From assembly GCA_001275005.1 (NCBI GenBank), contig JWZX01003335.1, positions 1 through 42,529 of the forward strand: a DNA stretch of 42,529 bases, given 5' to 3'. The first letter of the stretch is position 1. The number at the start of each line of letters is the position of its first letter. Source of the DNA: Chrysochromulina tobinii (Eukaryota). The position numbers were made by a program, and so were the translations under genes. The notes under the pieces were generated by a model. It was not told the origin of the DNA, made no database searches, and saw only the letters and a program-made list of their open reading frames with translations. Positions 16,573 to 42,529 of the stretch are shown here, piece after piece.

Positions 16573-19500
16573 CTAGGCGGCTGCCACCACCTTATGCTCG
16601 TCGCTCGTGCCGGCCAAGTTGGCGAGGAAGCCAGCGACGCGCTGGGCGTCTGTCATCTTCGCCACCTTGGCGTACTTGACGGCGCCGCACAGCGCCAGCG
16701 CCATCTTGTAGTCGCCGCCGCTGCACAAGAAGGCAGCGCTCGCGTCCAGCCACGTGAGGTCGCAGCGCAGATCGCCCACGATCGCGCCACGCACGAGCTT
16801 CTTGCCCTGCAGCTGCTGAATGAACGAGGCTTCGCTGAGCGGGCTGGGCGGCGCAGGCGCTGTGCCGAGCGCCGCCTGCACGTCCGCATCCGCCTTGAGC
16901 GGCGCGAGAAGCTCCGCGAGCTTCGCCTTGCGCGCCGTGCGAGAGAGGTTGCTCTCGATCATGATGCGGAGGGCCACGGGGGCGGTGGCACCTCCGGCGG
17001 TGCCGCCGCCATTGATGGCGTACGCGAGCTGCACGATGAGCTGGAAGAACTCGTGCAGCTCGAGATCGCTGTCGGTCGCGCCCGTCTGCTTGTTCACCTC
17101 GTCGAAGAGCTTGACGATCTTCGGAAGCCCATAGTGAGGTGCGGCGAGCCCGCAGCCGGCCACAAAGTCCACCAGCTCCGTCTGCTGCATGTTCTTATCC
17201 GCGCCCGCGTAGTACAGGAAGATGGCCTCGAGGTCGTCGTACGCCGCCTCGAGCAGACCATACACCTCCTCTTCCCACTCGGGGAACCCGTTGACGCGCG
17301 ACAGGTCCATCTTGCTCCAGTGCGCAGCGAGCCTGCCCCCCTTGGGCGGCTTGTACCGCTCAACTGGCCCGCCCGCGCTCGCGACAATGTCCGAATCGGA
17401 GCTGGTGCCAAGGAACTCCTTGGCGATGCCCTCGATCTTGGCGTTGCGGTCCATGGAAGCCACGTCAGCATACTTGAGCATGCCGCACATGGCGAGCAGC
17501 AGCAGGAACTCCTCAAAGTCGATCGAGTCATTGCCGCCGTCGGCCGCATGCTCGCCGTTCTGGCACAGGATGAAGGCAGACTCGACGTCGAGCGCCGACA
17601 GGCCGACTTCGACCTCCGCGGGCGGCGCGCCCGTCGTGGGCGGGCGCGGGTTGGCCTTCTTGATGACGACGAGGTTGCGATCCTTGAACTCGCCCACGAT
17701 CGTGGGCCTCGTCAAGGTCACCGTCCCGAAGAACATGAGTGCCTTCTTCTCTCGCTTCTTCTCAATCTTCTCAAACTCCTTCTTGAGCGCCGAGCGCGTG
17801 TTCTTGAAGGGACCTGAGAGGTCGAGAGCCATCAGCTCGGTCTTGATCTTGACGATCCGATTCTTCTTGGCCTTGCCGAGGATGTTCTTGGTAAGCGCGG
17901 CCTCAAAGCAGCCCGGCAGCGGATCCTTGACGCCTTCGCCGATGCCGCCAGAGCCAGCGAGCTTCGGGTTCGCACGGTGGAGCGAGATGTGCAGCAGCAG
18001 CGCCATGAAGGCAGGCAGGTCGAGACCCTCCTTGAGCTTGGGCGAGTTGTTGCACAGGTCCTTGTACAGCGACTGCACGCGCGCGATCGAGAACTCGGCG
18101 GTGATCAGTCCGCTGTCGCGGCAGAAGGAGGCGAGCTCGTTCTCCTGCAGCGTGACCGCCTGCCACGCCGTCGACTGCAGCTGACCGCCCGTGATCGACT
18201 GCGCATAGTTGGAGAAGATGCCATAGATCTCCTCGAAGTTGGGCTGCAGCAGCTTGAAGACCGCCTCCTCCCAGACGGGGAAGCCGACGATGTCTGTGAT
18301 GACCATCTCCTTCCAGCAGTTGACGAACTGCGCGTGCAGCTGCGGCCCGCCGGTCACCGCCGGGTTGGCCTTTTCGAAGAACTTGTTGCGCGGCGGCTCC
18401 GGGAAGAGTGCGTCCGTGAGCACGTCCTGCTCCGACTTGCGCTCCATGAGCTGGTTGATCGCGCCCCCGACGCACTGGCTGAGCTTCATGCCGTCCTCGA
18501 TGGCCGCGCGGTACTTGATGAAGCCGCACACGGCCAGTGCGACCATGAACTCCTCAAAGTCGACAAATTGCCGCGCGTCGCCTACGGCGAGCTTCTGCTT
18601 CTCGGAGCCGTCCTGAGCGGCCGCAAAGGCGCTCTTCGCATCGATGGACGAGAGACCCATCGCGTACTTCTTCATCGGCTGGCCGACCACGGGCGGCCGC
18701 GGCGCGACCGTCGTGTCGGAGACAACCTTGGAGTCGTACATCGCGTCGTAAAAGTCGTCCATCTTCATCGAGAGACCGTCGATGTTCTTGGAGGAGGCGG
18801 CCGAGAGCTTGCCGCCCTGCTCTCCTTTGCCCGCGATCAGCACGAACTTGTTGGCGAGCTCGGCGCGGTGCGCCTTGAAGAGCTTTTGGCACTCGGGATC
18901 CTCCTTGATCTTCTTGACGAGCGCGGGCATCTCGTCCCGCTTGGCCTTGGTCAGGATGTTCTTGGTAAGCAGCGTCTCGAGGCAGCCAGGCAGCGGGTTG
19001 GCGACCTTGTCGACCGTGTTCTGGCCGAGTTGGCCAAACTTGGGGTTGGCCTTGGCAAACGCGAGCATCACGAGCACCTCGTAGAACTCGTGGATCTCGA
19101 GGCCGTGGTCGCCCGCCTCGGCGCCTTTGCCCACCTTGACGCGCTTGTCCGCCTTCGAGGCGACCTGCGTGTCGTCGACCTGGTCGCCGCGCTCATAGAT
19201 GCCGGTGACGCGCACCATCGGGAACTCGGTGTCGTTCGAGGACGAGATGCCGCAGTCGAGAGCAAAATTGGTCAGCTCCGTCTTCTGCATCGTGAACAGC
19301 GCAGTCGCGGTGCTCGAGCCGGCGGTGCCGCTCTTGGCGTAGCCCGAGAAGATTATCTTGAGCTCGTCGTGCGCCTTGGCCAGCAGCATGAAGACCTCCT
19401 TCTCCCACGTCGGGAAGTAGAAGACGTGCGTCAGGTTCATCTTAGACCACACGGCGAGGAAGCTCTTGTCGGCGGACGAGGCGGTGGGCGTGAAGCGCGG

Positions 19501-22500
19501 AGCGGGGGGCTGGAGCACCTCGGAGACCACCGAGTGGGCGTCGCGCGTCTGCAAGTAGTTGTCGTACATGCCCGCCACCTTCTGGCCGAGGGTCATCTTG
19601 TCATCGGGCACGTTCTCGTACTTGATCACGCCGCAGAGCGCGAGCGCGCTGCACCACTCCTCGAAAGTCACAAAGCCGTCGCTGTCGTTCTGGCACGTGA
19701 CGAAGGCGCCCTTGACGTCGAGCCACGAGAGGTTCGACTTGATCGGCACGACGACATCGCCGGTGATCGCCGGAGTCGGCTTGATCGTGAGGTCCTCGCA
19801 GCACATGCGCGGAAGGTGCGTGTTGGGGTTCTCCGCGATGTCGGTGTTGAACATCTCGATGCCGAGCAGCGAGCTCGAGCCGTCCTCTTCGCCGCCCGCG
19901 TTGCCGAATTGGTCCTTCGTGCCCGTCATCGTCGTCGCGTCGCGCTGCGAGGCGGCCTCGAACTGAAGCTTGAGAGCTGCCTTGCGAACGCGAAGCGCCT
20001 CGACGCACTCGGGATCCTTGTCGACCATCTTCTTGTACTTCATCAACACGTCGCGCTTGGCCTTCACCAGGATGTTCCTTGTCAGCATCGACTCGAGGCA
20101 GCCCGGGAGCGGCTCCTTGACGTACGCCTCCGAGCTCTTGCCGACATCGCCAAACTCGGGCTGCGCGCGCGCGAACGCGATCATCACGAGGCACTCGAAG
20201 AACTCGGGCATGGTGAGCGCCTGGTTGCCCTTCTCCGCCGTCTTGCCCTTGATCGATCCCGCGCGGGAGTCGGCCTTGTTGACCTCGAACGTGTCGTCTT
20301 TCTGGTCGGCGCGCATGAAGATGTTGTTGATGCGCGCCATCTTGAACTGCTCGGTCGCGAGCTCGCAATCGAGCGCGAGGTCGGTGAGCTCCGTCTGCTG
20401 CATCGTCATGGCGGACAAGGCCGAGCCCGAGCCGGCCGAGCCGCTCTTCGCGTACTGCGCAAAGATCGACTTGAGCTCCGGGTACGCGCGCTGGAAGACG
20501 CCAAAGAGCTCCTCCTCCCACAGCGGGAAGCCGAAGACGTGGCTCAGGTCCATCTGAGACCACACCTTGAGCAGCGCCTTGTGCTCCGCCTCGGCCTGGT
20601 CCTTGAGCGGCTTCGCTTTGGATGTGTCGTAGCGCGGCGGCGGCGGCACGACCGCCTCGCTCACGATGAACTGCTCGTCCGCCTCGTTGAGGTAGTTCTG
20701 GACCATGCCGCTGAAGCGCGTCGCAAGTGTCATCTCAGCGATGTTCTCGTACTTGATCGAACCGCACAGCGCGAGCGCGATGACAAACTCATCAAAGTCG
20801 ATGCTCTCGTTGCCCTCCTCGCCGCCGTCGCCGCGCTGCGCCGTGGTGAACGCGCCCTTGGCGTCGAGCCACGAGAAGTTGCACTTCTGCACGGGGAAGA
20901 CCTGGCCCTTGACTTTGGGCGTGGGCTTGATCATCAGGTCCTGGATGCATCGACGCTCCTGCAGCTGCTTCTGGAACATGTCCATCGACATCACCTGCTT
21001 GCCAAAGACCATGCGCACACCCACCTTGGTCGTCTCGATGAAATCCTTCTCCAGAGCCTTCCGGATACCGGGCATGATCATCTGGCAATCGCGGTCCGTC
21101 TCGAGCGACGCCTTGATGAGCGCGAGCTTATCGCGCTTGGCGTTCTTGAGAATGTAGCCGTTGAGCACGGACTCGAGGCAGCCGGGGAGCGGCTTATCCA
21201 CCGAGAAGTTGTGGCCCAACTCACCGAAATCAGGGTTGGAGTAGTAGAGGGACATCGCCACAACAGCCTCGAGGAACTCCTCGAGCTTCAGCCCGTGGTC
21301 TCCCGCCTGGGCAAAGTCGCCCTTCATGACGGTGATCTCGACCTCCTGGATGCGGTCCGCTGCGCGCTGCAGCGTGTTGACGTTCGCCTTGTCGGACCCG
21401 TCGCCCGCCTTGGCGTCCTTGTTGACGCCGAGCGTCTTCACCTTGGTCGCCTTGAGAGTATCGTCCACCTGGTCGGCGCGCGTGAAGATGTTGGTCACGC
21501 GCGTCGCGTTGAAGCCCTGCTCGTGGTTGCTCACGACGCCGCAGTCCATGGCGAAGTTGAAGAACTCGGTCTTCTGCATCGTCTGCAGCGAGGTGGCGCT
21601 CGCCGAGCCGGCGGTGCCGCTCTTCGAGTACTGCGAGAAGATGGATGAAAGCTCGCCGAAGGACTTCTCGAGCAGCGCGAAGACGCCCTCCTCAAACTCC
21701 GGGAAGCCGAAGAGGTGCGACAGGTCCATCTTCTTCCACGTGTCCATGAAGGTGGCCGAGGGCACGGGGCCGCCCGTGTTGCGCTTGACCGCCGGGTTGA
21801 AGCGCGGCGGCGGCGGGTAGCACAGGTCGATGCACTTCTGCTCGTCCGTCTCGCCCAGGTAGTTAGTGTACAGGCTGTCCACCTTTTGGGCGAGGCTCAT
21901 CTTCTCTACATTCGCGTACTTGATCGAGCCGCAGAGCGCGAGGCACACCATGAACTCGTCGAAGTTGATCGTGGTCGCCGTGTTCTCCTTCTCGACCTTT
22001 TGCGAGGTGACGAAGGCGCCCTTGGCATCGATGACCGAGAGCTTCGTCACGACCGGGTCGAGCTTCTTGCCCTTGACCGGCGAGGTGGGCGTGATCTCAA
22101 CGTCGCGCGCGATGCCGCGCTCGAAGAGGTCCTGCGTGAACACGTCCATCGAGAGCGTTGGCCCGCCCTTGCCCGGCTTCTGCTTTTCGCTCTTGCACAG
22201 CTTGTCGAAGACTCGCTTGAGACCGTCGCGCCGGCGCTGCATCGCATCCTGCACGCCGTCCTGCTTCAGCTGCGCCTTGACGGCGGCCAGCTGGTCGCGC
22301 TTCGCGTTGAGCAGCAAGTTCTCCTTGAGCATGGTCACGAGGCAGTCGGGCAACGGCACGTCCACCTTAGTCGCGTCGCCCGCGAGCGTCATCGACGGGT
22401 TGGCGCGGAAGAGCGCGAGCATCACGACCGCCTCGAGGAACTCGAAGAGCTCAAGGGCGCCGTCGCCGGGCTTGGGCGCCTCGCCAGGCTTCGCGTCGGC

Positions 22501-25500
22501 CATGTCGGCGCGCTCGAAGAGTTCGATGACGCGCGACATCGGGAACTTGTCCGTTGCGAGCGAGCAGTCAAGGGCGAGGTCGGTGAGCTCTGTCTGCTGC
22601 ATCGTGAGCTCCTGGTCCTTGGCCGCCTTGGCGTTGCCGCTCCCACTCTTGGCATACTGCGAGAAGATGGAGATGAGCTCGTCAAAGGAGCCGTAGAGCG
22701 TCAGGAAGACGCCCTCCTCCCAGAGCGGGAAGCCGGCGAGGTGTGAAAGGTCCATCTTGGCCCACGTGCCCAGGAAGGCCTCCGAGGCACCACTCGCCGC
22801 CGGGTTGTAGCGCTCAATCGGCGGGTAGAGCGCGTTCGAAACGACGACCACCTCGTTGCGCGTTCCGAGGAAGTTGTCGATGGCCCCCAGACAGCGGCCA
22901 GCATTGTCGATGCCTGGCTTGCCCGCCCCGGGCTTCTCCTTCACCTCGGCGTACTTGATCAGGCCGCACAACGAGAGCACCATCATGAACTCGTCAAAGT
23001 AGACGGTCTCCGTGTCCGCGTCGCCCGCCTGCACGGTGACGAAGCACTGCTTCGCGTCCTGCCACGTGAGGCACACGTGCACATCCTCGACGGCCTCGCC
23101 CGCGACCGCGGGCACGGGCTTCACCACCAGGTCGCACGCGAGCTTTCGATCCTGCACCGCCGCGACGAAGGCGTCGATCCCCAGCTTGGGCACCGGGGCC
23201 TTGGGCCCTTTGGTCTTCTCGGCCGCGCAGAGCTGCTGGAAGAGCACCTCAGCCGCCTCGCGGCGCGAGCGAATCTTGTTCAGCACGGCGCGATCCTTCT
23301 GGACGATCTTGAGCTGATTGGCCATCTCATCACGCTTCGCGTTCACGAGCACCTGCTTCGAGAGCAGCGACTCGAAGCACGCGGGGAAGGTCTCCGTCGG
23401 CACCGCCTTCGCGTCCTTCTTCAAGGCCTCCTCAAACTTGGGGTTGGCGCGGTAGAAGGAGATCATCACGAGCGCCTCGAGGAACTCGTGCAGCTCGAGG
23501 GCGCCGTCGCCCTTGCCCGCCTTTTGGCCGGATTTGGACTTGCCATCTTTGGCATCGTCGACCACATCGGCGCGCTCGAAGAGCTCGATGATCTTCGTCA
23601 TCGGGAACTCGCCCGTCGCAAGCGAGCAGTCGACGGCAAACTCGGTCAGCTCCGTCTGCGCCATCATCGTCGACTCGGCCGCCGAGCCCTTGCCCGACTT
23701 GTAGTCCTTGCCCTTGGCGTAGAGCATGAAGATCGAGAGGAGCTCACCATAGTTGGCCTTGATGAGCTCGAAGATCGCACCTTCCCACACCGGGAAACCG
23801 TACAGGTGTTGCAGGTCCATCTTGTTCCACGTGGTGAGTGCCTGCTCGTACTCGTCGATTGGCTGGCCGCCCGAGGGCGCCGAGTACTTGGGATCGAAGC
23901 GCAGCACAGGAGCGACGACGGCCTCCGTGATCACCGCGTGCTCGTCCTTCTCGTGGAGGTAGTTGGCGATGATGCCCGCGACGCGCTGCGCCAGGCTCAT
24001 CTCCTCGATCTCCTCGTACTTGACGTAGCCGCACAGCCCGAGGCAAATGCACCACTCGTCGTAGTCGACGGTCTCCTTGGCGTCGTCCATGCCCTTCATG
24101 TCGCCACTCGTGATGCTGACGCTCTGCGCCGTCACGAAGCAACCCTTGATGTCGAGCTGCGACAAGTTGGAGTGGTACTCGGGCATCTTCATGCCGCGCA
24201 CGGCGGGGGTCGGCGTGACCGTGATGTTCTTGACCAGCTGGTGCGAGTGCTTGGCCGACGAGTCGTTCATCTGGCCGCAGTCATCGCAGAACATCTCCAT
24301 GTTGATCACGAGCTTGCCCGCGACCTTCATCGGGCCGCTCTTGCCCATGTGATCAAACTCCTTGCGCAGCTTGGCGCGGTAGGCTTTGAAGATCTCCTGG
24401 CACTCGGCCGAGGCGATGATCTCCGCCTTGACGAGAGCGAGCCCGTCCGTCTTCGCCTTCTTGAGCAGAAAGTTCTTGAGCAGCGTCATGAAGGCGGTGC
24501 CTGCGTCCACGTCCGCCGCAAAGTTGTTGCCAACCTCGCCGTACTTGGGGTTGGCGAGCGAGAAGCCGAGCATCACCATCGACTCGAGGAACTCGTGGAA
24601 CTCGAGGCCGCGGTCGCCGCCCTTGGCGTCCTCGCCGATTTCGACCCGGTGGTCAGAGGCGCTCTTCTTGATCGTGTCGTCGACCTGGTCGGCGCGCCGG
24701 TAGATGTTGACGATGCGCGTCATGTTGAACGACTCGGTGAGGATCCCGAGGTCGAGCGCGAGATTGCCGAGCTCCGTCGCCTGGATCGTCATCGCCTGGT
24801 CGGCGCTGGTGGCGCCGGCGGTGCCGGACTTGGCATAGTAGGTGAAGATGCTCGTGAGCTCCTCGTATGAGCCGGCGATGCCCTTGAACACGGCCTCCTC
24901 GAAGATCGGGAAGCCGAAGACGTGCGACAAGTCCATCTTGCCCCATGTGTCCAGGATGCGCGAGGCGAGCTTCTGCGGCAGCTGCACGCTCTTGGGGTCG
25001 AATCGCGGCGGCGGCGGGTAGAGGCAGTCGCTGATGACCTTCTGCTCGTCAGCCTTGACGAGGTAGTTGAGGTAGATGGACTTGACGCGAGTTGCGAGGT
25101 CCATCTTCTCAATCTCCTCGTACTTGATGTGGCCGCAGAGCCCCAGGATGCACAGGAACTCCTCGAAGTCGATGACGACCGAGCCGCTCGACTGGCCGCC
25201 CACGCCGCCGGCCGCGCCGCCGGTGCTCTGGCCGGTGACGAAGGCACCGCGGATGTCGAGCTGCGACAGGTTCGAGTGCACGTCGGGCACGAACGCACCC
25301 GAGATGGCGGGCGTCGGCTTGACGATGATGTCCTTGGCGACGTGCCTCTTGTTGCACTGCTCGATGAACTTTTCGAGCGTCATCGTCGCCGCCTTGGTCG
25401 CCGCGAACTCCTTGTTGGACGCGCCCTCGAAGGCCTTCTTGAGCTCGGCCTTGTATTGGTTGATGACCGCACGCACCTCGGGCTCTTTTTGGATGCGCTT

Positions 25501-28500
25501 GAGCGTCTTTGTGAGCTGGTCGGTCTTCGCCTTGGTGAGGATCGACTTGGTCAGCAGCGTCTCGAGGCAGCCGGGCAGCGGGTGTACGAGGACGTCGCCG
25601 CCGTCCTTGGAGGTCGTGTTGCCCACCGTGCCGTACTTGGGGTTCTGGCGGTAGACGGCCATCATCACGAGGCACTCGAAGAACTCGTGCAGCACGAGGC
25701 CACGGTCGCCGCCCTTGGCCGTCTCGCCCTTGACGATGCCAGTCGTCTCGTCGCGGTACATGGTGTCGTCCGCCTGGTCGGCGCGCTCAAAGATGTTGAT
25801 GACGCGTGCCATCGAGAAGGTCTCGTTGGCGAGCTGGCAGTCGAGTGCGAGGTTCGTCAGCTCCGTCTTCTGCATCGTGAGCGCCGAGATGGCAGAACCC
25901 GAGCCGGCCGCGCCCGACTTGGCATACTGCTGGAAGATGGACGAGAGCTCGGGAAAATACTTGCCAAAGAGCATGAAGACGCCCTCCTCCCACATGGGGT
26001 AGCCGATGACGTGCGACAGGTCCATCTGCTTCCAGCAGGCGAGGTACGAGGGGTCCGTGCCCGCGGGCGGCTCGTAGCGCGGCAGTGGCGGGTAGAGGCA
26101 GAGCGACACCCACGCGTGCTCGTCCTTGCGCCCGTGCTTGTGCTCGACGCCCTTGCTATGCTTACCCGCGGCCGCCTCGCCCTCGGTGAACAGGCGGTAG
26201 TTGTAAAAGATGCCCTCCATGCGCTGCGCCACCGTCATTTGCTCGATCTCCTCGTACTTGATGTGGCCGCACAGCGCGACGCACATGTAGAACTCGTCGA
26301 AGGTCATCGACGTGTCGCTCGTCGATTTGGTGGTCTTGCTCATCTTCTCAAACTGACGAGCCTGGCACGTGGCGAAAGCGCCCTTGGCATCGAGCCACGA
26401 CAGGTTGACGTGCACCGTGGGCGGCGTGGTGCCCGAGACGGCGGGCGTCGGATGGATGATCTGGTCATTGAGCAGCTTGCGGTCGAGGAAGTCCTCCATC
26501 ATCGCCTCGAGGGTCCACGTCTCCTGCTTTCCACCCTCGATTGAGTCCACCGCGCGCTTCGAGAACGCCTCCTTGAAGTACGCCCGGTGCTCCTTGAACA
26601 CGGCCTGGCAGGCGACGTCCGTCTCCATGATCTTCTTGATCTTGGCGAGCGTGTCCGTCTTCGCCTTCTTGAGCAGCACGTCCTTGAAGAGCGTCTCAAG
26701 GCAGCCGGGCAGCAGGATGTACTCCTCCTTAGCGGCCTTCTCGACGCGCACCGAGCCGTCGGCCTTGATCGAGAAGGCCTTGTTGTTGCTGCCGACCTCT
26801 CCCCATTTCGGGTTAGCGCGCTGGAAGGCGAGCATCACGACGGCCTCGAAGAATTCGTGCAGCTCGAGGCCCTTGTCGCCCGCCTTCGCGTTTTCGCCCT
26901 CGAGCACGTTCTTGTTCACCTTGGACTCTTTGATGGTACCGTCCACCTGGTCGGCGCGCTTGAAGATGTTAATGACGCGCGTCATCGAGAACTTGTCGGT
27001 GGTCATGCCCGTGTCGAGAGCGAGCGTCTGCAGCTCCGTCTGCTGCATCGTTAGCAGCGCGCCCGACGAGGACGAGCCGGCGGTGCCGCTCTTGGCATAG
27101 TAGTCGAAGATCGACGAGAGCTGCTCGAAGTTGTCGTGGAAGAGCTTGAAGACGCCCTCCTCCCACAGCGGGAAGCCGTACACGTGCTTCAGGTCCATCT
27201 GAGACCACACCTGCTTCACGCGCGCAAAGAGCTTCTTGTCCTCGCCATCGTTGATCTTGGCCGTCTCGCAGTCGTAGCGCGGCAACGGCGGGTAGCAGTA
27301 CTTGCTGATGACCCTGTGCTCGTCCTCGTCCTGCAGGAAGTTTTGGATGATGCCCTCGACGCGGTCCGCGAGGCTCATCTCCTCAATCTCCTCGTACTTG
27401 ATGTGGCCGCACAGGCCGAGCACGTGCAGGAACTCCTCGTAGTCGACGCCGCTGTTGCCCGTCGACTCGCCCGTGCGCTGCGCAGTCGAGAAGACACCCT
27501 TGAGGTCGAGGTTGGACAGATTCGAGTGCCGCGGCCGCTCGACGGTGCCAGAGACCTGAGGCGTCGGGTTGACCACGATGTCCTTGAAGAGGCCACGTCC
27601 CTTGCCGGTGCCGTCAAAGTCGGGTCCGAACCAGTCGGTGAGAGTTTGGAGCGTCAGCGTGACCACGCCAAACTTTTGGATGCCCGATCGCGTCTCGAAG
27701 GCTTTGGCCTCGAACATCTTCTTGAGGCCGCGGTCGGGGTCGGAGGTGCCACCTGTGCCAAACATGTTCCGGTTGACGATGACCTCCTTGATGTACTCGT
27801 ACTTCTTAAAGTGCTTCTGCACCTCCGGATCGACCTTGAGCTTCTCGAGCACCTCGCGCAGCTTGTCGCGCTTCGCCTTGGGCATCACCTTCTCGGCGAG
27901 CATCTTCTCGAGGCACTCGGGGTACTTGCCGTGCGAGCAGTCGCGGTTGCCCACCGAGCCGTACTTGGGGTTGAGGCGCTGGAAGGAGACGCGCATGAGG
28001 AGCTCGAGGAACTCGTGGAACTCGAGCGAATTATCACCGCCCTTGCGCACCTCGAGGCCGCCGCCGCCGCGGTGGGCCGCGCCGCCCGCGCCGCCGATCT
28101 CCTCGATCGTCGCATCCTGTTGGTCGGAGACCTCCATGAGCGAGTGGATGCGCGTCATCATAAAGTCCTTTGTGGTGAGCTCGCAGTCGAGTGCGAAGTT
28201 GGTCACCTCCGCCTGTTGCAGCTTGAACGCCGAGTCGGCCGACGTGCCCGTTCCGCCGCTCTTTGCGTAGTATGAGAAGATGGAGCCGAGCTCCTCGAAG
28301 TACTTTGCAAAGATGATGAAGACGTCCTTCTCCCACAGCGGCCAGCCATGGCAGTCGTCCAGGATCATGCGCTTCCACGTGGCGACGAAGTCGGGGTTGG
28401 TGAGCTTCTCGTCGGCCTTCTCGTCTGCGCTCAGGTCCGCGTCGGGGTTGAAGCGCTTGAGCGACTTGGTGAGCGAGTACTTGACGGCCTCGAACACCCT

Positions 28501-31073: not shown

Positions 31074-31484
31074 ATGGCTCTCCTCGTCTCAGCCCTAGCG
31101 CTCAACGCGTTCGTGCTGATGGGCCCGGCGGTGTCGCCGGTGCGCACCACCGGCGCGGTCATGATTGCGGATGACGCTAAGGCCAAAGCGGCGTGGCTGG
31201 CGAAGCAAAACGCGCCGAGCTTCGGCCCCAAAGACGCCGCCAAGACGCGCGACGCTGCGCCGCCGGCAGGGGCTGCTGGCGCTGCCGTGCGATATGCCGC
31301 GCCTCCGGGCAAGGCGTACGGCCAGCCCCAGATTGCAGGTCTCACGGTCGCCCAGATCTACAAGAAGCAGGCTAAGGCTAAGAAGGATTACGAGGGCAAG
31401 GCCGTGGAGAGGTGCGAGGACCGCACTGGCAAGGGATGGGACACCAAGTCGAGGTACTGGCCGATTGGCACTCCGCACCTCTAA
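31074..31484 (+). CDS. Small (136 aa) protein with a signal peptide and transit-peptide-like leader, probably plastid-targeted
   Basis: MALLVSALALNAFVLMGPAVSPVRTTGAVM, then AKAKAAWLAKQNAPSFG and a Lys-rich C-terminus; coding-type codon usage. Confidence 0.6.
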   Translation: MALLVSALALNAFVLMGPAVSPVRTTGAVMIADDAKAKAAWLAKQNAPSFGPKDAAKTRDAAPPAGAAGAAVRYAAPPGKAYGQPQIAGLTVAQIYKKQAKAKKDYEGKAVERCEDRTGKGWDTKSRYWPIGTPHL

Positions 31485-32610: not shown

Positions 32611-35600
32611 ATGCCCAAGCCGGCGACGGATGGCTCTGGCTTCGTGGCTGAGCGCGATGCCGTCAAATTGGAAGGCGAGTCCGAGGCCTTTTTCAAAGGC
32701 CTTGTCAAGATGTGGGTCAAGATCGAAATCGAGGACCACCCGAACTGGTTCGACTGGCAGCTGCGTGTCTGGGATAAGATCCACACCAACCTGCCTGCCA
32801 TTGCCGGCCTGTACTTCGAGTACGCTAAGCGCGGCGGCTCGGCGGCGAAGAGCCCGACGGAGGGCTTCACAATGTCGCAGCGCGAGTGGGTGCAGTTTGT
32901 CAAGGACATGAAGCTTCCGATCCCGATCACGGAGATCAACGACGTGTTCCGGCGTGTCGATCGTGCCGACAAGGAGGAGCGTGAGAAGAACCCGAAAGCC
33001 AAGAACGACAAGCAGATGGTGCTCGCCGAGTTCCTTGAGGCGCTCACGCGCGCCGCTGTCAAGTGGATGAACGTGTCCAAGCAAGGCAAGCAGGACTACA
33101 AGGATGGGAAGACGGGCGAGTGGTTCGAGCGGCTGATCGACGAGTATGTGCTGCCGCTCGGCGAGCGCGACGTCATGAAGGAGTGGCGCGAGCATCTCGC
33201 CTCTGCCGAGATGGACGAGGTGCTCGCGCCCTTCAAGCCGAAGCTCCAGGAGAAATTCGCCGAGATCGTAGCTCGCACGCGCGCCTCGGGCGACCAGGGC
33301 AAGAAGGACTCTGCGCTAGAGGGCAAGAAGGGCGGCCCAGCCAAAGCGCAGACACAGAAGGGGAAGGCCTTTGAAGGCAAGGTACGCCGACGATGGAGGG
33401 TCGAACGCGCCGCTGCCGCCGCCGCCGCCGCAGCAGCAGCAGCAGCCGCCGCCGCCGCCGCCGCCCGCGCTCAAACGCACACACGCACGTGCGCACGCAC
33501 GCACGCACACCTACATTTACACATACTACCGTCATCCGACCGGCTACCCATCCGACCGCCTACGGCGGCTCCTCCCACAAACGTCCATGTGCCAGTCTCG
33601 TGGAGGCGATGGCAGTGGCAGCGGCTCGCCGCAGCCACAGCCGCTGCAGCGTTGAGACACTCGCGGCAGCGGCGATGACTGAGGCGGCGAGGTGATGGCT
33701 GAGGCGGCGAGGTGATGACGGTGGCGGCGAGGGGATCACGGAGGCGGCGAGGCGCCCCCAGTCCGCGTTCAATCGCAATGCCGGCGGTGTCAGGGTGCTC
33801 AACCCTGGCATGCACTGCCGTCGTGGCCGCTCCATCAGCTTCCGCTGCTTCCGTCCTTGCCACCGTTGCAGCAGCATTCGCGCTCTGGGTGGCTGCAGCC
33901 GCGGCCGCTACTGCCGCCGCCGCTGCCGCCGCTACTGCCGCCACACAGAGGCTACGCACAGGCTTCACACACATTCACAAGCACACCCCGCACGCGCGCT
34001 CGCGTCGCCCGCCGCGTCCGAGGCGTCACCTCCACGCTTGCCCCACGTTTCGCGAGCTCACGCCCCCTTCCCTGTTCCTTTTCCATTCTGACCCTCGCTC
34101 ACCCTCGCAGGCCAACGAGAAACAGAACAAGAAGGCGGCGGCAGAGGGGGCTGAGCTCGACGGTCCGGCAGCCGTGGTCAAGGACCTCGAGATGTGCAAG
34201 CTGCTGCTGGACATCAAGTGTGTCGTCGAGAACCCGGTCACGGGCGAGAGGCCCCTGATCTACATGATCGAGCTCTCGCGAATGGATGTGGAGCGCGGTT
34301 TCATCGAGTCACAGAACCGCGAGGAGGCGCTCGAGGCGATCGTCTCGGGCAACATGAGCAAGCTCGCGGACTCGAATGAACTCAACCTGGAAGAGTTCTA
34401 CAGGTGCATCGCCTTCTGCGGCCTCAACATGTTCCGCAACGTGAAGGAAATGCCGCCAACGGACCGCGTGCAGACGCTGCTTGAGATCTACGTGGGGGAT
34501 CCAGACAAGGCCACGCCAGCGGACCGAATCCGCGCGACCGTCAAGAAGGTGCTCTCAAAGGGGCTGGTGCGCTTCAACCCTTCGACGGACCTGAGCCCAG
34601 AGGAAGTGGGCGCCTCGAGCGTGAGCGAAGAGTTCATTGCGATCTGGAGCAAGATGATCCTCGACGATTGCCACGGCTGGCCGCTGTGGGAGAAGGAGCT
34701 GTTCCTGCTGCTCAGCTCCAAGTACGAGGATCTCTATTCCATCTTCACCTTTTACGCCAAGAGCGGCGGCGTGGGCACGAGCTCCACGAGCGGCTTCATG
34801 CTGCAGCAGCAAGAGCTCACGAACCTCGCGCTGGACTGCCAGTTGCCCACGCCCGACTTTGCCATGGCGCGCATTCAGCTGATCTGGAAGATGTCCGACC
34901 AGGGCGACAAGAAGCTCTCGGGCGACGCGGCCGTCGACCTGCGCCACGCGGCCACAGGCTCGGGCGACCGCGCTCTCGAGATCTTTGAGTTCTTCGAGGT
35001 GCTCGTTCGCCTCTCGCTGCAGCGCCAGAACCCGAAGCTCGGCTCGGTCGGGTTCGAGCACACCGTCGAGCAGCCGCTGCCCGGCTGCCTCGAGTACGTG
35101 CTCAATGAGCACATCATCAAGCTCGCCAAGAAGGACTCTCTCAAAGAGGTCCTGGACGCGCTCAAGGTGGACAAGGTGGCGCTCGCGCACTTCGAGACGC
35201 ACAAGAAGCGTCTGAAGAAGGCCTTCGAGGAGTTGGCCCTGAAGACGCGCGACGGCTCGCGCATGTTCGCGCAGGTGATGCTCACACCGCTCGTCATCGT
35301 CCAGGACTATGTCGACCGCAAGTGCACCAAGGATACGATGGTGACGCCCACGCCCGCAGTGACCGGCGACGACGTGCGGCCACGCCATTCGAACCTGTCG
35401 CAGCTCGACGTCAAGGGCGCGGTCACCACTGCGCAGGACAAGTCCGAGTCGACCGGCAACGCGGGCTCCAACTATGACGAGTGGTGCATGTGTCTCGGGC
35501 TGTGCGGCCACATCAAGTACGAGGAGATCTCGGAGATGAGCCTGGCGCAGCGCGTCGAGGGTATGATCCTCAACTACCTGGGCGAGAAGGATGAGCACGC

Positions 35601-38600
35601 GGTCATCAGCGACTGCCTCTACCCGCCGCTGCCGCGATACGACGTATCGAACGCCAAGCCCCTCATGGGTGAGGAGACGCTAGTCTTCAAGAACTTCGTC
35701 GCGTGCTGGAAAAAGTGCGACTTTACGCACGTGTACGGCTTCCCCATGTGGGAGGAGGAGGTCTTCAACACGTACCATGAGGTCTTCGAGCGATTGAGCT
35801 CCGTCTTTGACTATTACGCCAAGTCCGGGACTGCCGGCTCCTCCTCGGCGGGCACCGCGATGACGATGCAGCAGACGGAGCTGCAGAACCTCGCGCTCGA
35901 CGTCGGGCTCGCGTCAGCGCAGTTCTCGATGACGCGCGTCATCAACATCTTCAAACGCGCCGACCAGGTCGACGACACCTTCGTCGTGTCCAAGGCAGAC
36001 AAGCGCGTGGTCAAGGGCGAGACGGCCAAGCACGGCGACAATGGGCTTGAGCTGCACGAGTTCCTCGAGTGCGTCGTCATGCTCGCCTTCCAGCGCGCCA
36101 ACCCCAAATATGGAGAGGTCGGCTTCTCGGGCGACTCACTCAAGGTGGGGGTCGACGGCTCGAGCGTGCGCGAGACGAAGAGCAAAGGGAAGCCAGCCGA
36201 GCTGATCCCCGTGCCCAAGGCGCTGCATGAGCTGCTGCACAATGTGATCCTCAAGAAGGCCAAGACGGACGGGCTCGCCAAGGTGAAGAAGCAGCTGCTC
36301 GTCGACCCCGAGTGCGTGCGCGTCTACAAGGAGCGGCGTGCGGCCCTCGCCAAGGAGTTTAAGAAGCTCTCCGTGGACGGCGTCGAGGCGGGCACGGACG
36401 CGACCACGACGCTTGATAAGGTGATGAACGACTTCTTCGAGCGCCACGTGACCAAGGACATTCACGTGAAGCCGACGCCTGCCGTCACCGGCGACACGCC
36501 GCCTCCCGTGCACTCGAACCTTTCGTGGCTCGACTGCAAGGGCGCCTTCGTCACTGCGCAGGATAAGGACAGCAAGAACGCGGATAACACGACAGTTACC
36601 TTCGACGAGTTCCTCATTTGCCTCGGGCTGTGCGGCCACATCAAGTACGAGGAGCTGCTCGACATGTCGCTCGCCACGCGCCTCGACGGCGTCATTTGCA
36701 ATTACCTAATGGAGAAAGACGAGCATGCGGTCATCACCGAGTTCCTCTTCCCGCCCGTCGAGCGGTTTGTGCCGCCCGCGGGCATCGACCCTCTCTTCCT
36801 CGCCGTGTGGAAGAAGATGGATCTGTCGCATGTCTTTGGCTTCCCGACGTTTGAGCAGGGCGTCTTCGCGCTGCTGTACAAGTCGTTCGGTGAGCTCGCG
36901 TCGATCTTCACCTACTATGCCAAGAGCGGTACCGCCGGCTCGACGTCGGCGAATGCGCTGCTCACCATGCAGCAGACCGAGCTGCAGAACCTCGCGCTCG
37001 ACTGCCAGCTCTGCAATGAGCAGTTCTCGATGACGCGCGTCATCAACGTCTTTGAGCGCGCCGACCAGGTCGACGACACCTTCGTCGTGTCCAAGGCAGA
37101 CAAGCGCGTGGTCAAGGGCGAGACAGCCAAAGGCGGCGACAATGGGCTCGAGCTGCACGAGTTCTTCGAGTGCCTCGTGATGCTCGCGCTGCAGAAGGCC
37201 AACCCCAAGTTCGGCTCGGTGGGGCACAATACGTCGGTCGAGTTCCCGCTGCCCGGCTGCCTCGACACGCTGCTCAACAAGTCGATCCTCAAGCGCGCCA
37301 AGTCCGACAACCTCGCGAAGACGCTCAAGCGCATCAAAAAGGAGCCCGAGGTGCAGGCTGTCATTGCCCGGAACAAGCCCGAGCTTCATAAGATCTTCTT
37401 GTCCAAGTCGACGGCCGCGCACTCGAAGACGGCGAACCCGACGATGACCATGGAGACCTTTGTGGCACAGTGCGTCGAGCGGCGCGTCTGCAAGGACACG
37501 ATCGTCAAGCCCGAGCCCAACGTGTCGGGTGCCATCGTGCCCGACGTGCACTCCAACTTGTCGCAGCTCGACATCAAGGGTGCCTTCGTGACGGCGCAGG
37601 GCGAGGGCAAGGATAAGGACAAGATCGACGCCGACGAGTTCCTCAACATCCTCGCGCTGTGCGGCTCGATCAAGTACGAGGAGGTCGAGGGCATGACGCT
37701 CGAGCAGCAGGTGGCCGGTGTGTACGCCAACTTCCTCATGCTGAAGGATGAGGAGAAGGTGATCTCGGAGGTGCTCTACCCGCCCCTCGAGCGCCACGTA
37801 CCGCCCGCGGACACAGATCCGAGGATGCTCGAGGTGTGGAAGAAGATGGACCTGTCGCACATGTTTGGCTTCCCGATGTGGGAGAAGGTCGTCTTCGAGC
37901 TCACGCTCAGATCGTTCCCGGAGCTCGCCTCGATATTCGACTTCTATGCCAAGAGCGGGACCGCCGGCTCCTCCTCGGCGGGCAAGGCGTTGACCATGCA
38001 GTCGACCGAGCTCACCAACCTCGCACTCGATTGCGACTTCGCCACCAAGGACTTTCTGATGGCGCGCATCAACACCATCTTCATGCGCGCCGACCAGGTG
38101 GACGACACGTTCAAGGAGTCGGCGGCAGACCACCGCGTCATGGAAGGCGAGACGGCCAAAGGTGGCGACCGGGGGCTCGAGCTGCACGAGTTCCTCGAGT
38201 GCCTCGTCAACATCGCCTTCTCGCGCGCCAACCCCAAGTACGGCTCGGTCGGTTACAATGGCAAGGCTGAGATCGACGTGGGCACGGCGTACGCGATGCT
38301 GCTAGACAAGAACGTGCTCAAGATGGCTAAGAAGGACTCGCTGGCCGCGGTCAAGGCGCAGCTGTCCACCGACGCTCGCATCCTCGAGCTCTTCAAGGAG
38401 CGTCGCTCGCTCATCGCCAAGGAGTTCGAGAAGCTCGCGGCCAAGGGCCCGCGCAAGATCTTCGGCAAGAGCGTTGTCACCATGGAGCTGTTTTGCGATG
38501 ACATGATGGACCGCTCGGTGGCGGACGACAAGATGATCTCGCCCACCCCGGCGTTCACCGGCCAAATCCTCCCTCTGGAGCACGCGAACCTGTCGCAACT

Positions 38601-41600
38601 CGACTGTAAGGGCGCCTTCGTCACGTGCCAGGCCAATGTTGGCGCCGAAGGCAAGGAGGGCGCCGAGACGATCGACTTTGACGAGTTCCTCGTCTGCCTC
38701 GGGTTGTGCGGCCACATCAAGTACGAGGAGGTGCATCAAATGGACCTCTACGCGCGCGTCGCGGGCATCCTCGGCAACTACCTGCGTGAGACCGACGAGC
38801 AGTTCGTCATCTCCGAGGCAGTCGTGCCCAAGCCCGAGCGCTACGATCCGAAGTCGAGCGCCGCCCTCAAGAACCAGGAGCCTGAGGAGCACAAGCGCTG
38901 GCTCGCCACGTGGACGAAAATGGACCTGTCGCACGTGTTTGGCTTCCCGGCGTGGGAGAAGGAGGTCTTCCTTCTGCTCCAAGGCTCCTTTCCCGAGCTG
39001 GCGAGCATCTTCGCCTACTATGCCAGGTCGGGCTCGGCCGGCTCCGGCTCGGCCAAGAGCGCGGAGACGATGCAGCAGACGGAGCTCACCGATCTCGCGC
39101 TCGACTGCGACATCGCCTCCAAGGACTTTCCGATGGCGCGCGTCAACAACATCTTTGAGCGTGCCGACCAGGTGGACGACACGTTTAAGGTGTCTGCCTC
39201 CGATAAGCGCGTGGTGCTTGGCGAGACGGCCAAAGGCGGCGACAATGGGCTCGAGCTGCACGAGTTCCTCGAAGCGATCGTGATGCTCGCGTTCGCCAAG
39301 GCGAACCCGAAGTTTGGCACGGTCGGGAACAATGCGTCGGCCGAGTTCCCGCTGCCCGGCTGCCTCGAGACGCTGCTCAAGAAGCACCTGCTCACGAAGG
39401 CGAAGACGGACACGCTCGCCAAGGTGAAGAAGATGATCGAGAAGGACCCGGAGGTGCAGCTGGTGCTGCGTCCGCGCAAGGCGCAGCTCAAGGCATGCTT
39501 CGAGAAGTTGGCCAAGTCGGACTCGACGATGACGGTGGGCTCGACGCTGATGATGTCGATGGAGAAGTTCTGCGACGACCTGTTCGAGCGCAAGGTGACC
39601 AAGGACATCATGGTGGACCCGACGCCGATCGTCAAGGGCGTGCCTCTGCCGCGGCGCCACTCGAACCTGTCGTGGCTCGATGCCAAGGGGGCGTTCGCCG
39701 TATGCCAGACCTCGGGCGCTCTGGCCGGCGACGGCTCTTCACAGGACGGCTCTTCACAGACGATGACCTTCGACGAGTTCGTCGTGTGCCTCGGGCTGTG
39801 CGGCCACATCAAGTACGAGGAGATTACGGAGATGAGCCTGCCGCAGCGCGTGGACGGCATCATCGCCAACTACCTGGGCGAGAAGGACGAGCACGCGGTG
39901 ATCACGGAGGCGGTCGCGCCTCCCATGGAGCGCTTCACTCCGCTCAAGTCGGGAGCTGACCCCAAGTTTGTCGCCGTGTGGAGCAAGATGGACTTGGGCC
40001 ACGTGTTTGGCTTCCCGGCGTGGGAGAAGGAGGTCTTCATGCTGCTCATGGCAGCGCATCCCGAGCTGTCCAATATCTTCATCCATTATGCCAAGAGCGG
40101 CACTGCAGGCTCCGTGAGCGCCACCGCCGTGCTCACGATGCAGCAGACGGAGCTCGTCGACCTCGCGCTCGACTGCGGTCTCACCTCGTCCACGTTCTCG
40201 ATGGCGCGCGTCCAAAACATCTTTGAGCGCGCTGACCAGGTCGATGACACCTTCGTGGCGTCCAAGGCGAACAAGAATGTCATCCTCGGCGAGACGGCCA
40301 AGGGCGGCGACAATGGGCTCGAGCTGCACGAGTTCTATGAGTGCGTCGTCATGCTCGCTCTGGCGCGCGCGAATCCAAAGCTCGGCACTGTGGGGAACAA
40401 TACGATGGATGCGGTAACCGAGCCGCTGCCCGGCTGCCTCGACTCTTTGCTCCAGAAGAACCTGCTCAAGAATGCAAAGCGCGACAAGCTCTCCAAGGTT
40501 CGCAAAGCCGTGATGGAGCTGCCCGAGGTGCAGGCGGCGCTCAAAGCGGCGGCGCCCAAGCTGCGGCCGCACTTTGAGGCGGCGGCAATCAAGGACGCGA
40601 CGGTGATGAATACTGGCAACAAGGCGATTGTGATGGGCATGGACGCCTTCTGCCAGGACCTCGTCAGCCGGGGGCTGACCAAGGATCTCATCGTCAAGCC
40701 GACCCCGGCCGTCAAGGGCACGGTGCCACCCGACGTCAAGTCGAACCTCTCGTGGCTCGACTGCAAGGGTGCCTTTGTGACCGGCCAAAAGGCGGACGAG
40801 AAGGCCGCCGACAAGCTCACGCTCGGCTTCGACGAGTGGCTCACTATCCTCGCGCTCTGCGGCCATGTGAAGTACGAGGAGGTGCAGTGCATGAGCCTCT
40901 TGCAGCGCGTCGAGGCCATCATCGGCCAGTACCTAGGAGAGGTGGACGAGCACTATTCCATCACGGCCGCCATGTTCCCGCCCATTGAGCGCTTCGTACC
41001 CGCCGAGCGCACGGATCTGGTCGTGGGCGCGCGCAGCCTCTTGGGTACGTGGAAGGCCATGGACCTGTCGCACGTCTTTGGCTTCCCGACGTGGGAGAAG
41101 GAGGTGTTCACGCTCTTCGAGGGCAGCTTTGCCGAACTGAGCTCCATCTTCGACATGTATGCCAAGTCCGGGACCGCCGGCTCCTCCTCGGCGGGCACCG
41201 CGATGACGATGCAGCAGACGGAGCTGCAGAACCTCGCGCTCGACTGCGGACTCTCTAATGAGCAGTTCTCGATGACGCGCGTCATCAACATCTTCAAGCG
41301 CGCCGATCAGGTCGATGACACCTTCGTGGCCTCAAAGGCGAACAAGAATGTCATCCTGGGACAGACGGCCAAGGGCGGCGACCGTGGCCTCCAGCTGCAC
41401 GAGTTCTTCGAGTGCCTCGTGATGCTCGCGCTGCAGAAGGCCAACCCCAAGTTCGGCTCGGTGGGGCACAATACGTCGGTCGAGTTCCCGCTGCCCGGCT
41501 GCCTCGCCGCTCTGCTGACCAACTCGCTGCTCAAGAATGCCAAGCGCGACAAGCTTGCGTTGGTCAAGGCAGCTCTCGGGACCGATGCCGGCGTCCTCAC

Positions 41601-42529
41601 GGCGATGCCGCAGATCAAGCAACGTCTCCAAAAGAGTTTCGAGACGATGGCAGCCAAGGGCGTGCGTAAGCTTTTCGGCAAGCCGGTTGTCTCCATGGAG
41701 CAGTTCAACACCGACCTGCAGGAACGTAGGGTGACCAAGGATGTGATGGTCGTCCCAACGCCCGCCGTCGTGGGCACCGTCATGAAGCCGGTGCACTCGA
41801 ACCTGTCGTGGCTCGATGCCAAGAGTGCGTTCATCACGTGCCAGGATGGGCAGCACGGGCAGGATGGCGCGGAGACGATCGACTTTGATGAGTTTGTCAT
41901 CGCCCTCGCGCTGTGCGGCTCGATCAAATTCGAAGAGGTCAAGGAGGCGACGCTCGCCCAAAAGGTGCTCGGCATCGTCGACATCTACCTCGGTGAGAGG
42001 GATGAGCACGCCGTCATCACCTCGGCTGTGGTGGTCCCAATGGAGCGCTACGATCCAAAGTCGAGCGTCGCCCTCAAGAGCCAGGATTCCCTCGAGCACA
42101 AGCGCTGGCTCACCACGTGGGCGCAGATGGACCTGTCGCGCGTGTTTGGCTTCCCGGTGTGGGAGAAGGAGGTCTTCCTTCTGCTCCAAGGCTCCTTTCC
42201 CGAGATGCTGTCCATCTTCGCGCGCTACGCCAAGGCAGGGAGTGCCGGCTCCACCTCGGCCAACGCCGCGCTCACGATGCAGCAGACGGAGCTCACCGAT
42301 CTCGCGCTCGACTGCGACATCGCCTCCAAGGACTTTCCGATGGCGCGCGTCAACAACATCTTTGAGAACGCCGACCAGGCGAACGAGGGTGGCGTGCTCA
42401 GGGGCGGCAACAATGCGCTCGAGCTGCACGAGTTCATGGTGGCGATCGTGATGCTCGCGTTCGCCAAGGCGAACCCGAAGTTTGGCACGGTCGGGAACAA
42501 TGCGTCGGCCGAGTTCCCGCTGCCCGGCT
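32611..42529 (+). CDS. Giant repeat protein B (>3060 aa, 3'-truncated by the window), paralogue of A; exons 32611-33381 and 34111->42529
   Basis: ATG at 32611 (MPKPATDGSGF...) aligns with A's AKPSDGRGF. Exon 2 (ANEKQNKK...KDLEMCKLLLD...ELSRMDVERGFIESQ) matches A's KDVEMAKLFID...ELSRVDGERAFIESQ. The frame stays open to the window end. W..M.L.H..GFP.WE-type motifs occur near 34645, 35707, 36808, 37837, 38911, 39979, 41050 and 42118. Confidence 0.9.
33409..33463. repeat. (GCC)n/(GCA)n trinucleotide run within the intron
   Basis: Direct reading. Confidence 0.9.
33681..33752. repeat. 20-bp-period minisatellite x~3.6 within the intron
   Basis: GAGGCGGCGAGGTGATGGCT / GAGGCGGCGAGGTGATGACG / GTGGCGGCGAGGGGATCACG / GAGGCGGCGAGG. 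Confidence 0.85.

What the first reader, a model, noticed from the sequence alone, without database searches (positions are those of the whole stretch)
16573..42529. Head-to-head pair of giant paralogous repeat proteins: candidate undescribed Ca2+/microtubule cytoskeletal giants
Seen: two divergently oriented genes with starts ~1.9 kb apart encode ~4720 aa and >3060 aa proteins. Both are built from the same ~350-aa unit (12 units in A, at least 9 in B), and the early units are collinear: both unit 1s have MILDDCHGWPLWE, and both unit 3s have PPAG[T/I]DP and KTLKRI.KEPEV. B's main exon is missing from the ORF track. Established: giant modular proteins (titin, nebulin, Sfi1-type centrin-binding proteins) scaffold contractile and cytoskeletal fibres, and haptonema coiling in haptophytes is Ca2+-dependent and microtubule-based. 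Inference: A and B may be co-regulated subunits of a filament or ruler that bundles microtubules, for example in the haptonema or flagellar roots. I do not recognise this architecture as a named family.
Basis: partly seen in the sequence, partly recalled or inferred. Interest (0 to 1): 0.9.

Follow-up and report, generated by a model that had tools for sequence, protein, structure and literature searches.

The report
Giant twin TPPP-like repeat proteins
Two neighbouring algal genes encode giant related proteins built from tandem repeats whose predicted fold matches known microtubule-surface domains, so they likely coat and stabilise microtubules, possibly those of the fast-coiling haptonema.

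Summary
Observation confirmed, with corrections. Gene A (30735-16573, minus strand) encodes 4720 aa: a hydrolase-like N-terminus and 12 units of about 365 aa. Gene B (32611 to the window end, one intron spliced in RNA runs) encodes over 3063 aa with 9 units; an ortholog has 12. A third small gene lies between the starts, so A and B are not directly head-to-head. Each unit is predicted to hold two TPPP/p25alpha-like lobes, 24 in A. The top structural matches of both lobes are chains on ciliary central-pair microtubules (Z 11-12), above ordinary EF-hand proteins. The unit is homologous to a single C-terminal domain of a Chlamydomonas axonemal protein, probably FAP78 (E 4.9e-10). Unit order is kept in 37 of 37 A-type fragments. 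Named tandem-array relatives are all haptophytes (Prymnesiales). No canonical Ca2+ loop was found, so the calcium claim is weak. Best reading: multivalent microtubule-coating stabilisers of fixed length (0.55). The location (haptonema, roots or axoneme) is untested. Described TPPP-like proteins carry one to three such domains; I found no paper describing these arrays.

The parts
16573..30735 (-). Gene A, single open frame, 4720 aa (about 518 kDa, pI 5.6): hydrolase-like N-terminus plus 12 two-lobed TPPP-like units
   Evidence: RNA-library contigs cover 22600-30803; full-length ortholog P0325 with 12 units, 55% identical
29761..30480 (-). Alpha/beta-hydrolase-like domain of A (about aa 86-325) with a G-x-S-x-G-G nucleophile elbow; activity unknown
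   Evidence: Pfam Abhydrolase_6 E 0.002, below the curated cut-off; A 120-385 is 74.5% identical to the start of P0325
28468..29580 (-). A unit 1, divergent (20-23% to other A units, 42% to B unit 1)
16576..28467 (-). A units 2-12 (265-400 aa each; unit 12 shortened). Unit 9 holds the one near-canonical EF loop
31074..31484 (+). Small unrelated gene (136 aa, hydrophobic signal-like N-terminus) between the A and B starts
   Evidence: ORF; no Pfam or NCBIfam hit; poly(A) loose end at 31786 in run X1
32611..33381 (+). Gene B exon 1 (aa 1-257, most of divergent unit 1); an in-frame upstream ATG lies at 32539
33382..34110 (+). Gene B intron, 729 nt, GT-AG, phase 0
   Evidence: skipped in 3 of 3 RNA runs laid
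34111..42529 (+). Gene B exon 2, rest of unit 1 and units 2-9, cut by the window end; 12 units and a basic Pro/Lys tail inferred from orthologs
   Evidence: P0287 (4274 aa, 12 units, 67% identical) and P0007
38875..39408 (+). Lobe 1 of B unit 6 (modelled): TPPP-like helical lobe with an N-terminal packing segment
39409..39912 (+). Lobe 2 of B unit 6 (modelled alone): second TPPP-like lobe

Best explanation
A and B are paralogous giant proteins of tandem repeats, each repeat predicted to hold two TPPP/p25alpha-like lobes, that likely act as multivalent, fixed-length coats or braces on the outer surface of stable microtubules in the flagellar or haptonemal apparatus. Shown: the genes, the unit counts, the paralogy, the splicing of B, the conserved unit order and the sequence homology to an axonemal protein domain. 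Predicted: the fold of both lobes. Inferred: each lobe, or one lobe per unit, docks weakly in a groove between tubulin subunits as TPPP-like domains do on central-pair microtubules; 12-24 weak contacts add up to tight binding; the coat holds bent microtubules together or bundles them; the action does not need Ca2+ bound to the repeats. The basic tail of B orthologs would add a MAP-like contact. A's hydrolase-like domain would be a cargo or an anchor.
For: Lobe 1 model (unit pLDDT 80): top matches among 48,161 chains are 7n6g_5Z, C1 central pair (Z 12.3, rmsd 3.2, 121 aligned), 9nw3_2A, ciliary-tip central pair (Z 12.0, rmsd 3.0, 117) and microtubule-bound TTLL11 (Z 9.9, rmsd 3.0, 103); EF-hand proteins follow at Z 8.0 or less. 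Lobe 2 alone (pLDDT 90, pTM 0.86): 9nw3_5A residues 865-1062 (Z 11.5, rmsd 2.8, 120), 7n6g_5Z (Z 11.1), TTLL11 (Z 7.7), then EF-hands at 6.7 or less. That range matches TLP2's TPPP-like domain 889-1064, which binds between protofilaments at high curvature (PMC11642885). Foldseek ranks TPPP3 and CGI-38 first or third for both models. Pfam p25-alpha passes its cut-off on whole B (26 against 22.6) and on relatives P0031 and P0001 (35 bits). A 66-sequence profile hits residues 2161-2358 of the 2520-aa Chlamydomonas axonemal chain 8glv_LO at E 4.9e-10. Unit order is conserved. A C. tobinii B-type gene peaks at D6 and L1 like alpha-tubulin (r 0.93 and 0.85 over 7 points). Haptonemal microtubules are strongly curved and coated with unidentified proteins (PMC6398456). 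The isolated TTLL11 bundle does not bind microtubules alone (PMC12366701), which fits a need for multivalency.
Against: No binding was tested. Z 11-12 lies under the tool's caution line of about 13 for helical folds, and no Foldseek row reached E 0.001. No single unit passes the Pfam p25-alpha cut-off (best 18.6 bits); whole A has no hit and the B ortholog P0287 falls short (19.9). In FAP78 the C-terminal EF-hand-like domain, probably the homologous part, is not resolved on the microtubule and is named apart from the microtubule-binding domain (PMC10266980). All 21 units are net acidic and both proteins have pI near 5.6; the GxGxGxxGR motif of long TPPPs is absent in 6 of 6 proteins. In the expression check 1 of 3 unrelated control genes also correlated (r 0.78), and the gene used is only inferred to be the 3' part of a B-type gene. 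The whole-unit pTM is 0.57, so a rigid lobe-to-lobe geometry is not established.
Confidence: 0.55

Rival explanations
1. They are an EF-hand-like scaffold or elastic fibre that does not bind the microtubule lattice directly, for example a connecting fibre of the flagellar root system or a platform for partner peptides.
For: EF-hand, EH and S100 proteins fill most rows below the top three in both fold searches. The homologous region of FAP78 is probably the unresolved EF-hand-like domain. The units are net acidic.
Against: The top three matches for both lobes are microtubule-bound chains and the top two stand 4 or more Z units above the EF-hand rows. Pfam p25-alpha outscores EF-hand models on B.
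Confidence: 0.2
2. They are the Ca2+-switched microtubule-associated proteins that drive haptonema coiling: Ca2+ binding at non-canonical loops would change the pitch of the array and twist the microtubule bundle.
For: The coiling model in PMC6398456 calls for Ca2+-binding MAPs. The final glutamate of three loops is kept in 87-100% of 86 units, with an aspartate and a second acidic residue common in loop 2. Named A/B-type relatives come from Chrysochromulina, Haptolina and Prymnesium polylepis; C. tobin has a long coiled haptonema.
Against: 0 matches to the canonical EF-loop pattern in 7 proteins. The one near-canonical loop (A unit 9) recurs in only 3 of the other stored proteins and not in the full-length ortholog P0325. 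Presence or absence in haptophytes without a coiling haptonema could not be tested.
Confidence: 0.13
3. They are 96-nm longitudinal rulers or accessory filaments of the axoneme: 24 lobes at 4 nm, or 12 units at 8 nm, equal one axonemal repeat.
For: 12 units in A, in P0325 and in the B ortholog P0287. The single-copy relative is an axonemal protein. The related TTLL11 bundle is argued to fit both intra- and interdimer grooves.
Against: The arithmetic is a coincidence until the rise per unit is measured. Other paralog groups have about 8 units (P0364, P0031). The B-type gene keeps a second peak at L1 (L1/D6 1.03) that the six dynein, IFT and radial-spoke rows shown lack (0.08-0.40).
Confidence: 0.1

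Closest known systems
Multidomain TPPP-like proteins with short or truncated p25alpha domains (Orosz 2012, PMC3498115)
   Same: N-terminal-type p25alpha lobes without the Rossmann-like tail; in-protein multiplication of the domain; flagellated algae.
   Different: The paper lists one to three such domains per protein in green algae, stramenopiles and Naegleria (passages). These proteins have 24 predicted lobes in a fixed order, are 4.3-4.7 thousand aa, and score only marginally on PF05517.
Tetrahymena TLP1 and TLP2, ciliary-tip central-pair proteins (PMC11642885; PDB 9nw3)
   Same: Best structural match of lobe 2 (Z 11.5); TPPP-like domains with long loops; a large protein with more than one such domain.
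   Different: TLP2 has two domains joined by a long helix plus an armadillo domain (1694 aa). A and B are almost pure tandem arrays, and Pfam found no armadillo domain in them.
Chlamydomonas axonemal chain 8glv_LO, probably FAP78 (distal protrusion; PMC10266980)
   Same: Sequence homology of lobe 1 and the first half of lobe 2 to its residues 2161-2358 (E 4.9e-10). A Diplonema papillatum protein carries a similar single C-terminal copy.
   Different: One matched copy behind armadillo repeats, against 12 copies. The identity of chain LO with FAP78 is inferred from size (2520 aa; 267 kDa in PMC11151096) and the described C-terminal domain.
TTLL11 microtubule-binding helix bundle (PMC12366701; PDB 9hq4)
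   Same: Third-ranked structural match for both lobes; a five-helix bundle that docks in the groove between tubulin subunits.
   Different: Single copy on an enzyme. The structural alignment spans a wider residue range than the bundle, and Z is 9.9 and 7.7.
Sfi1, titin and nebulin
   Same: Very large modular proteins whose length may set a spacing.
   Different: Different modules: here a globular helical unit of about 365 aa. Pfam found none of their domains in A or B.

Membership tests
TPPP-like superfamily (p25alpha-domain proteins) | Pfam PF05517 match at the curated cut-off | tested here: inconclusive
   Whole B 26 bits against 22.6 as a sum of weak stretches; whole A no hit; 0 of 21 units or unit parts pass, best 18.6; 2 of 7 relatives pass at 35 bits
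TPPP-like superfamily (p25alpha-domain proteins) | TPPP-like helical fold | tested here: met
   Predicted models of both lobes rank TPPP3, CGI-38 and central-pair chains first; prediction only, Z 11-12
TPPP-like superfamily (p25alpha-domain proteins) | Binds or polymerises tubulin or microtubules | not testable with these tools
   Needs a bench assay
TPPP in the strict sense (long or short type) | One p25alpha domain and no other domain | tested here: not met
   12 two-lobed units, plus a hydrolase-like domain in A
Long-type TPPP | C-terminal partial p25alpha segment with GxGxGxxGR | tested here: not met
   0 matches in 6 proteins; motif from PMC3498115
FAP78 family | C-terminal EF-hand-like domain | tested here: met
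   Profile hit to 8glv_LO 2161-2358, E 4.9e-10; chain identity inferred
FAP78 family | N-terminal armadillo repeats | tested here: not met
   No armadillo hit in Pfam; apart from A's first 385 aa, both proteins are filled by the repeat unit
Ca2+-binding EF-hand proteins (calmodulin, centrin type) | Paired helix-loop-helix fold | tested here: met
   Secondary structure of the models and EF-hand matches at Z 5-8
Ca2+-binding EF-hand proteins (calmodulin, centrin type) | Canonical 12-residue Ca2+ loop | tested here: not met
   0 matches in 7 proteins to a recalled PROSITE-type pattern; one near-canonical loop in A unit 9
Sfi1-type centrin-binding proteins | Short centrin-binding helical repeats (recalled: a few tens of residues) | tested here: not met
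   Repeat is about 365 aa and globular; no Sfi1 hit in Pfam
Alpha/beta hydrolases (N-terminal domain of A) | Nucleophile elbow and complete Ser-acid-His triad | tested here: inconclusive
   Elbow present and conserved in P0325; Pfam, NCBIfam and PDB hits are weak; no model was made, so the triad is unassigned
Pfam PF27858 (name not available) | Profile match | not testable with these tools
   Precomputed on 5 of 30 and 6 of 23 homologs; it did not appear in my scans with the local Pfam copy, which seems to predate it

The most novel reading that the evidence does not exclude
A and B are the unidentified coat proteins of haptonemal microtubules: fixed-length arrays of 24 TPPP-like lobes that either run 96 nm along the lattice (one lobe per tubulin monomer) or wrap the 12 non-seam grooves of a 13-protofilament tube, hold the extreme curvature of the coiled state and, alone or with a Ca2+ sensor, drive motor-free coiling.
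Probability: 0.2. Interest if true: 0.9.

Novelty: new variant of a known kind. Interest (0 to 1): 0.66.

Why it matters
Haptonema coiling takes milliseconds, uses no visible motor, and is proposed to depend on microtubule-associated proteins that have not been identified (PMC6398456). These genes give named, testable candidates with a fold that sits at high-curvature sites on other microtubules. Even if they work elsewhere in the cell, they raise the number of TPPP-like domains in one chain from the one to three listed in PMC3498115 to a predicted 24, kept in a fixed order across species, which would be a new design for a microtubule ruler or brace.

Tried and rejected
No whole genome is held for the window, and the record behind locus L002 is not held, so the 3' end of B could not be read. 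RNA cover of A downstream of 22600 was not obtained, and no contig spans a whole gene, so full-length transcripts are not shown. Conserved A-B linkage: the metagenome scan gave 4 loci, three 97-100% identical to the window and one short fragment, so linkage in other species is untested; I saw no contig length shared by A-type and B-type pieces in the hit tables, which is weak. A complex prediction of lobe 1 with lobe 2 gave no answer (score 0.01); it is not evidence either way. Profile comparison of lobe 1 with lobe 2 aligned them in register but weakly (probability 3%, E 0.015); their kinship rests on the fold searches. A sequence search of PDB with lobe 2 alone gave only weak troponin C hits. 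The ESM Atlas returned unnamed, mostly haptophyte clusters, one with 15% p25-alpha members, at a recognition score below its mark. NCBIfam gave nothing for the unit. Assembly artefact rejected: units differ in DNA (mostly 60-87% identical) and independent orthologs keep the order. Membrane or secreted role rejected: no 21-residue window above hydropathy 1.5. Taxonomic absence cannot be claimed: the three homolog searches covered proteins up to 2510 aa only and most hits are unnamed. Earlier findings of this scan: three look-ups returned nothing. Ten paper searches found no description of these proteins; subscription papers are outside the library, and one supplement of PMC10266980 was unreadable.
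Full report
Observation. The window is GC-rich eukaryotic DNA. Gene A is one stop-free frame on the minus strand from ATG 30735 to the stop at 16573, 4720 aa. Gene B starts at 32611, has a 729-nt GT-AG intron (33382-34110, phase 0) and runs off the window after 3063 aa. The spliced model equals a stored public protein, P0292. An HMM of the units finds 12 in A and 9 in B; complete units average 365 aa. The closest named relative is a Chrysochromulina parva protein, 99.7% identical to B over 2018 aa, so the organism is a Chrysochromulina-type haptophyte.

Expression and layout. Of 19 runs listed as holding 26500-36400, 14 are RNA libraries, all mixed-culture runs of one year and possibly one campaign. 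I laid 3 of the 14 and 1 run of unknown kind on 22600-42529. The B intron is skipped in 3 of 3 RNA runs and not in the fourth run. RNA contigs cover A up to about 30800 and B from about 32324. No contig spans a whole gene, and these libraries can hold DNA. A 136-aa plus-strand gene (31074-31484) with a poly(A) end at 31786 lies between the starts. A therefore shares its upstream region with that gene, and B's promoter lies downstream of it. A shared bidirectional promoter for A and B is unlikely.

Paralogy and fixed order. A tree of all 21 units pairs A1/B1, A2/B2, A3/B3, A4/B4 and A8/B8 with strong support and A5/B5 at 90/97; 9 of 18 inner branches are open. The array therefore existed before the gene duplicated, and B later copied unit 6 into unit 9 (79%). 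Two unnamed full-length orthologs were found: P0325 (4688 aa, 55% to A, 12 units, each best matching the same-numbered A unit) and P0287 (4274 aa, 67% to B, 12 units, basic Pro/Lys tail). C. tobinii P0007 matches the end of unit 9 and units 10-12 of P0287, so B is probably 12 units long. Of 101 stored proteins with two or more unit hits, 37 were A-type and all 37 follow consecutive A units; they fall into 22 groups at 90% identity, five of them nearly identical to the reference P0325. Of 38 B-type or mixed proteins only 18 are collinear, the rest mostly with small score margins; 26 were distant or unassigned. More distant paralog groups have about 8 units: P0364 (Prymnesium sp.) and P0031 (Prymnesium parvum).

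What the unit is. The AlphaFold model of B6 (pLDDT 80, pTM 0.57) has two helical lobes, each a pair of helix-loop-helix motifs plus extra helices. For lobe 1 the best of 48,161 chains are 7n6g_5Z from the C1 central-pair microtubule (Z 12.3, rmsd 3.2, 121 residues), 9nw3_2A from the ciliary-tip central pair (Z 12.0, 3.0, 117) and microtubule-bound TTLL11 (Z 9.9); EF-hand proteins follow at 8.0 or less. Lobe 2, modelled alone (pLDDT 90, pTM 0.86), matches 9nw3_5A 865-1062 (Z 11.5, 2.8, 120), 7n6g_5Z (11.1) and TTLL11 (7.7), with EF-hands at 6.7 or less. The 9nw3_5A range agrees with the first TPPP-like domain of TLP2 (889-1064), which binds between protofilaments at high curvature (PMC11642885, passages). 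Foldseek ranks TPPP3 and CGI-38 at the top for both models but none at E 0.001. Pfam p25-alpha passes its cut-off only as a sum on whole B and on two relatives. A 66-sequence profile hits 8glv_LO, a 2520-aa Chlamydomonas axonemal chain, at residues 2161-2358, E 4.9e-10 (E 0.098 with window units alone). This is probably FAP78, which is 267 kDa (PMC11151096, passage) and has a C-terminal EF-hand-like domain that was not resolved on the doublet (PMC10266980, passages). A Diplonema protein has a similar single C-terminal copy. The unit is thus an old flagellate module, and its expansion into long arrays is seen, among named hits, only in Prymnesiales.

Calcium. A recalled PROSITE-type EF-loop pattern finds 0 matches in 7 proteins. 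Loops 1, 2 and 4 keep the final glutamate in 87-100% of 86 units, and loop 2 often has two further acidic residues, but the first ligand positions are replaced or displaced by insertions. One loop in A unit 9 is nearly canonical and recurs in 3 other stored proteins, not in P0325. Ca2+ binding is not excluded but has little support.

Other anatomy. A's residues about 86-325 resemble an alpha/beta hydrolase (Pfam E 0.002, below cut-off) and A 120-385 is 74.5% identical in P0325, more than the repeats. The other A-type fragments that I aligned begin inside unit 1, so the fusion is shown in two sequences only. Both proteins are net acidic, lack the GxGxGxxGR motif and have no membrane segment.

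Timing. In the C. tobin day-night series (PMC4580454; section 11 and supplement rows) the B-type gene Ctob_006009 peaks at D6 and L1, the pattern the paper links to tubulin and microtubule terms. Its correlation is 0.93 and 0.85 with two alpha-tubulin rows, 0.34-0.78 with six axonemal or IFT rows, and -0.34, -0.80 and 0.78 with three unrelated rows. These were the rows the search displayed, with seven points each and no replicates. This is weak support. The timing of A was not examined, so co-expression of A and B is untested.

How it most likely works. I commit to a multivalent microtubule coat of fixed length (0.55). Single lobes would bind weakly, as the isolated TTLL11 bundle does (PMC12366701, passages), and 12-24 of them in series would clamp a stretch of lattice. 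Two geometries fit the count of 12: 96 nm along a protofilament (8 nm per unit, 4 nm per lobe) or the 12 non-seam grooves around a 13-protofilament tube (lattice figures recalled). Neither was measured, and the 8-unit paralogs show that the count is not universal. The haptonema is an attractive site because its microtubules are highly curved and coated with unknown proteins (PMC6398456, passages and introduction), but nothing here places A or B in it. Rivals are a scaffold that does not bind the lattice (0.2), a Ca2+-switched coiling protein (0.13) and an axonemal ruler (0.1).

Novelty. The domain type is known. The passages of PMC3498115 list multidomain proteins with one to three short p25alpha domains. 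Ten paper searches found no account of these arrays; I also saw passages of bioRxiv 2024.04.02.587733, PMC13406575 and PMC7596323. Pfam PF27858, precomputed on some homologs, may already name the unit. Verdict: a real finding, a new variant of the TPPP-like kind, interest 0.66.

Noticed in passing
window 31074-31484 (+): Small expressed gene with a hydrophobic signal-like N-terminus and no Pfam or NCBIfam hit, between the A and B starts; poly(A) at 31786 in one RNA run.
   Followed up: partly
proteins P0024, P0030, P0271, P0355, P0358: Fragments 84-91% identical to B units 4-6 are joined to pieces of acetyl-CoA carboxylase in a C. tobinii model and in metagenome proteins; they look like degraded chimeric copies.
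   Followed up: partly
proteins P0364, P0185, P0190, P0033 and P0031, P0037, P0098: At least two further paralog groups with about 8 units, partly collinear within each group, named from Prymnesium sp. and Prymnesium parvum.
   Followed up: partly
window 33382-34110: The B intron holds long GCC/GCA-type low-complexity runs; several database proteins (P0295-P0303) are exon 1 read through into it.
   Followed up: no
window 3794-7810 (-): 1338-aa open frame with a matrixin (Peptidase_M10) zinc motif and apparent membrane segments.
   Followed up: no
window 10209-12829 (+): SpoU rRNA methylase domain and TRM1-type tRNA methyltransferase domain in one open frame, probably continuing past an intron.
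   Followed up: no
window 2013-3437 (+) and 8165-9379 (-): eIF3h and a double hot-dog thioesterase.
   Followed up: no
window 13447-15738 (-): 763-aa open frame just downstream of A with no Pfam or NCBIfam hit; its C-terminal half looks F-box/LRR-like by eye.
   Followed up: no
PDB chain 7n6g_3C (FAP216): Weak profile hit (E 0.023) of the unit to the central-pair protein FAP216.
   Followed up: no
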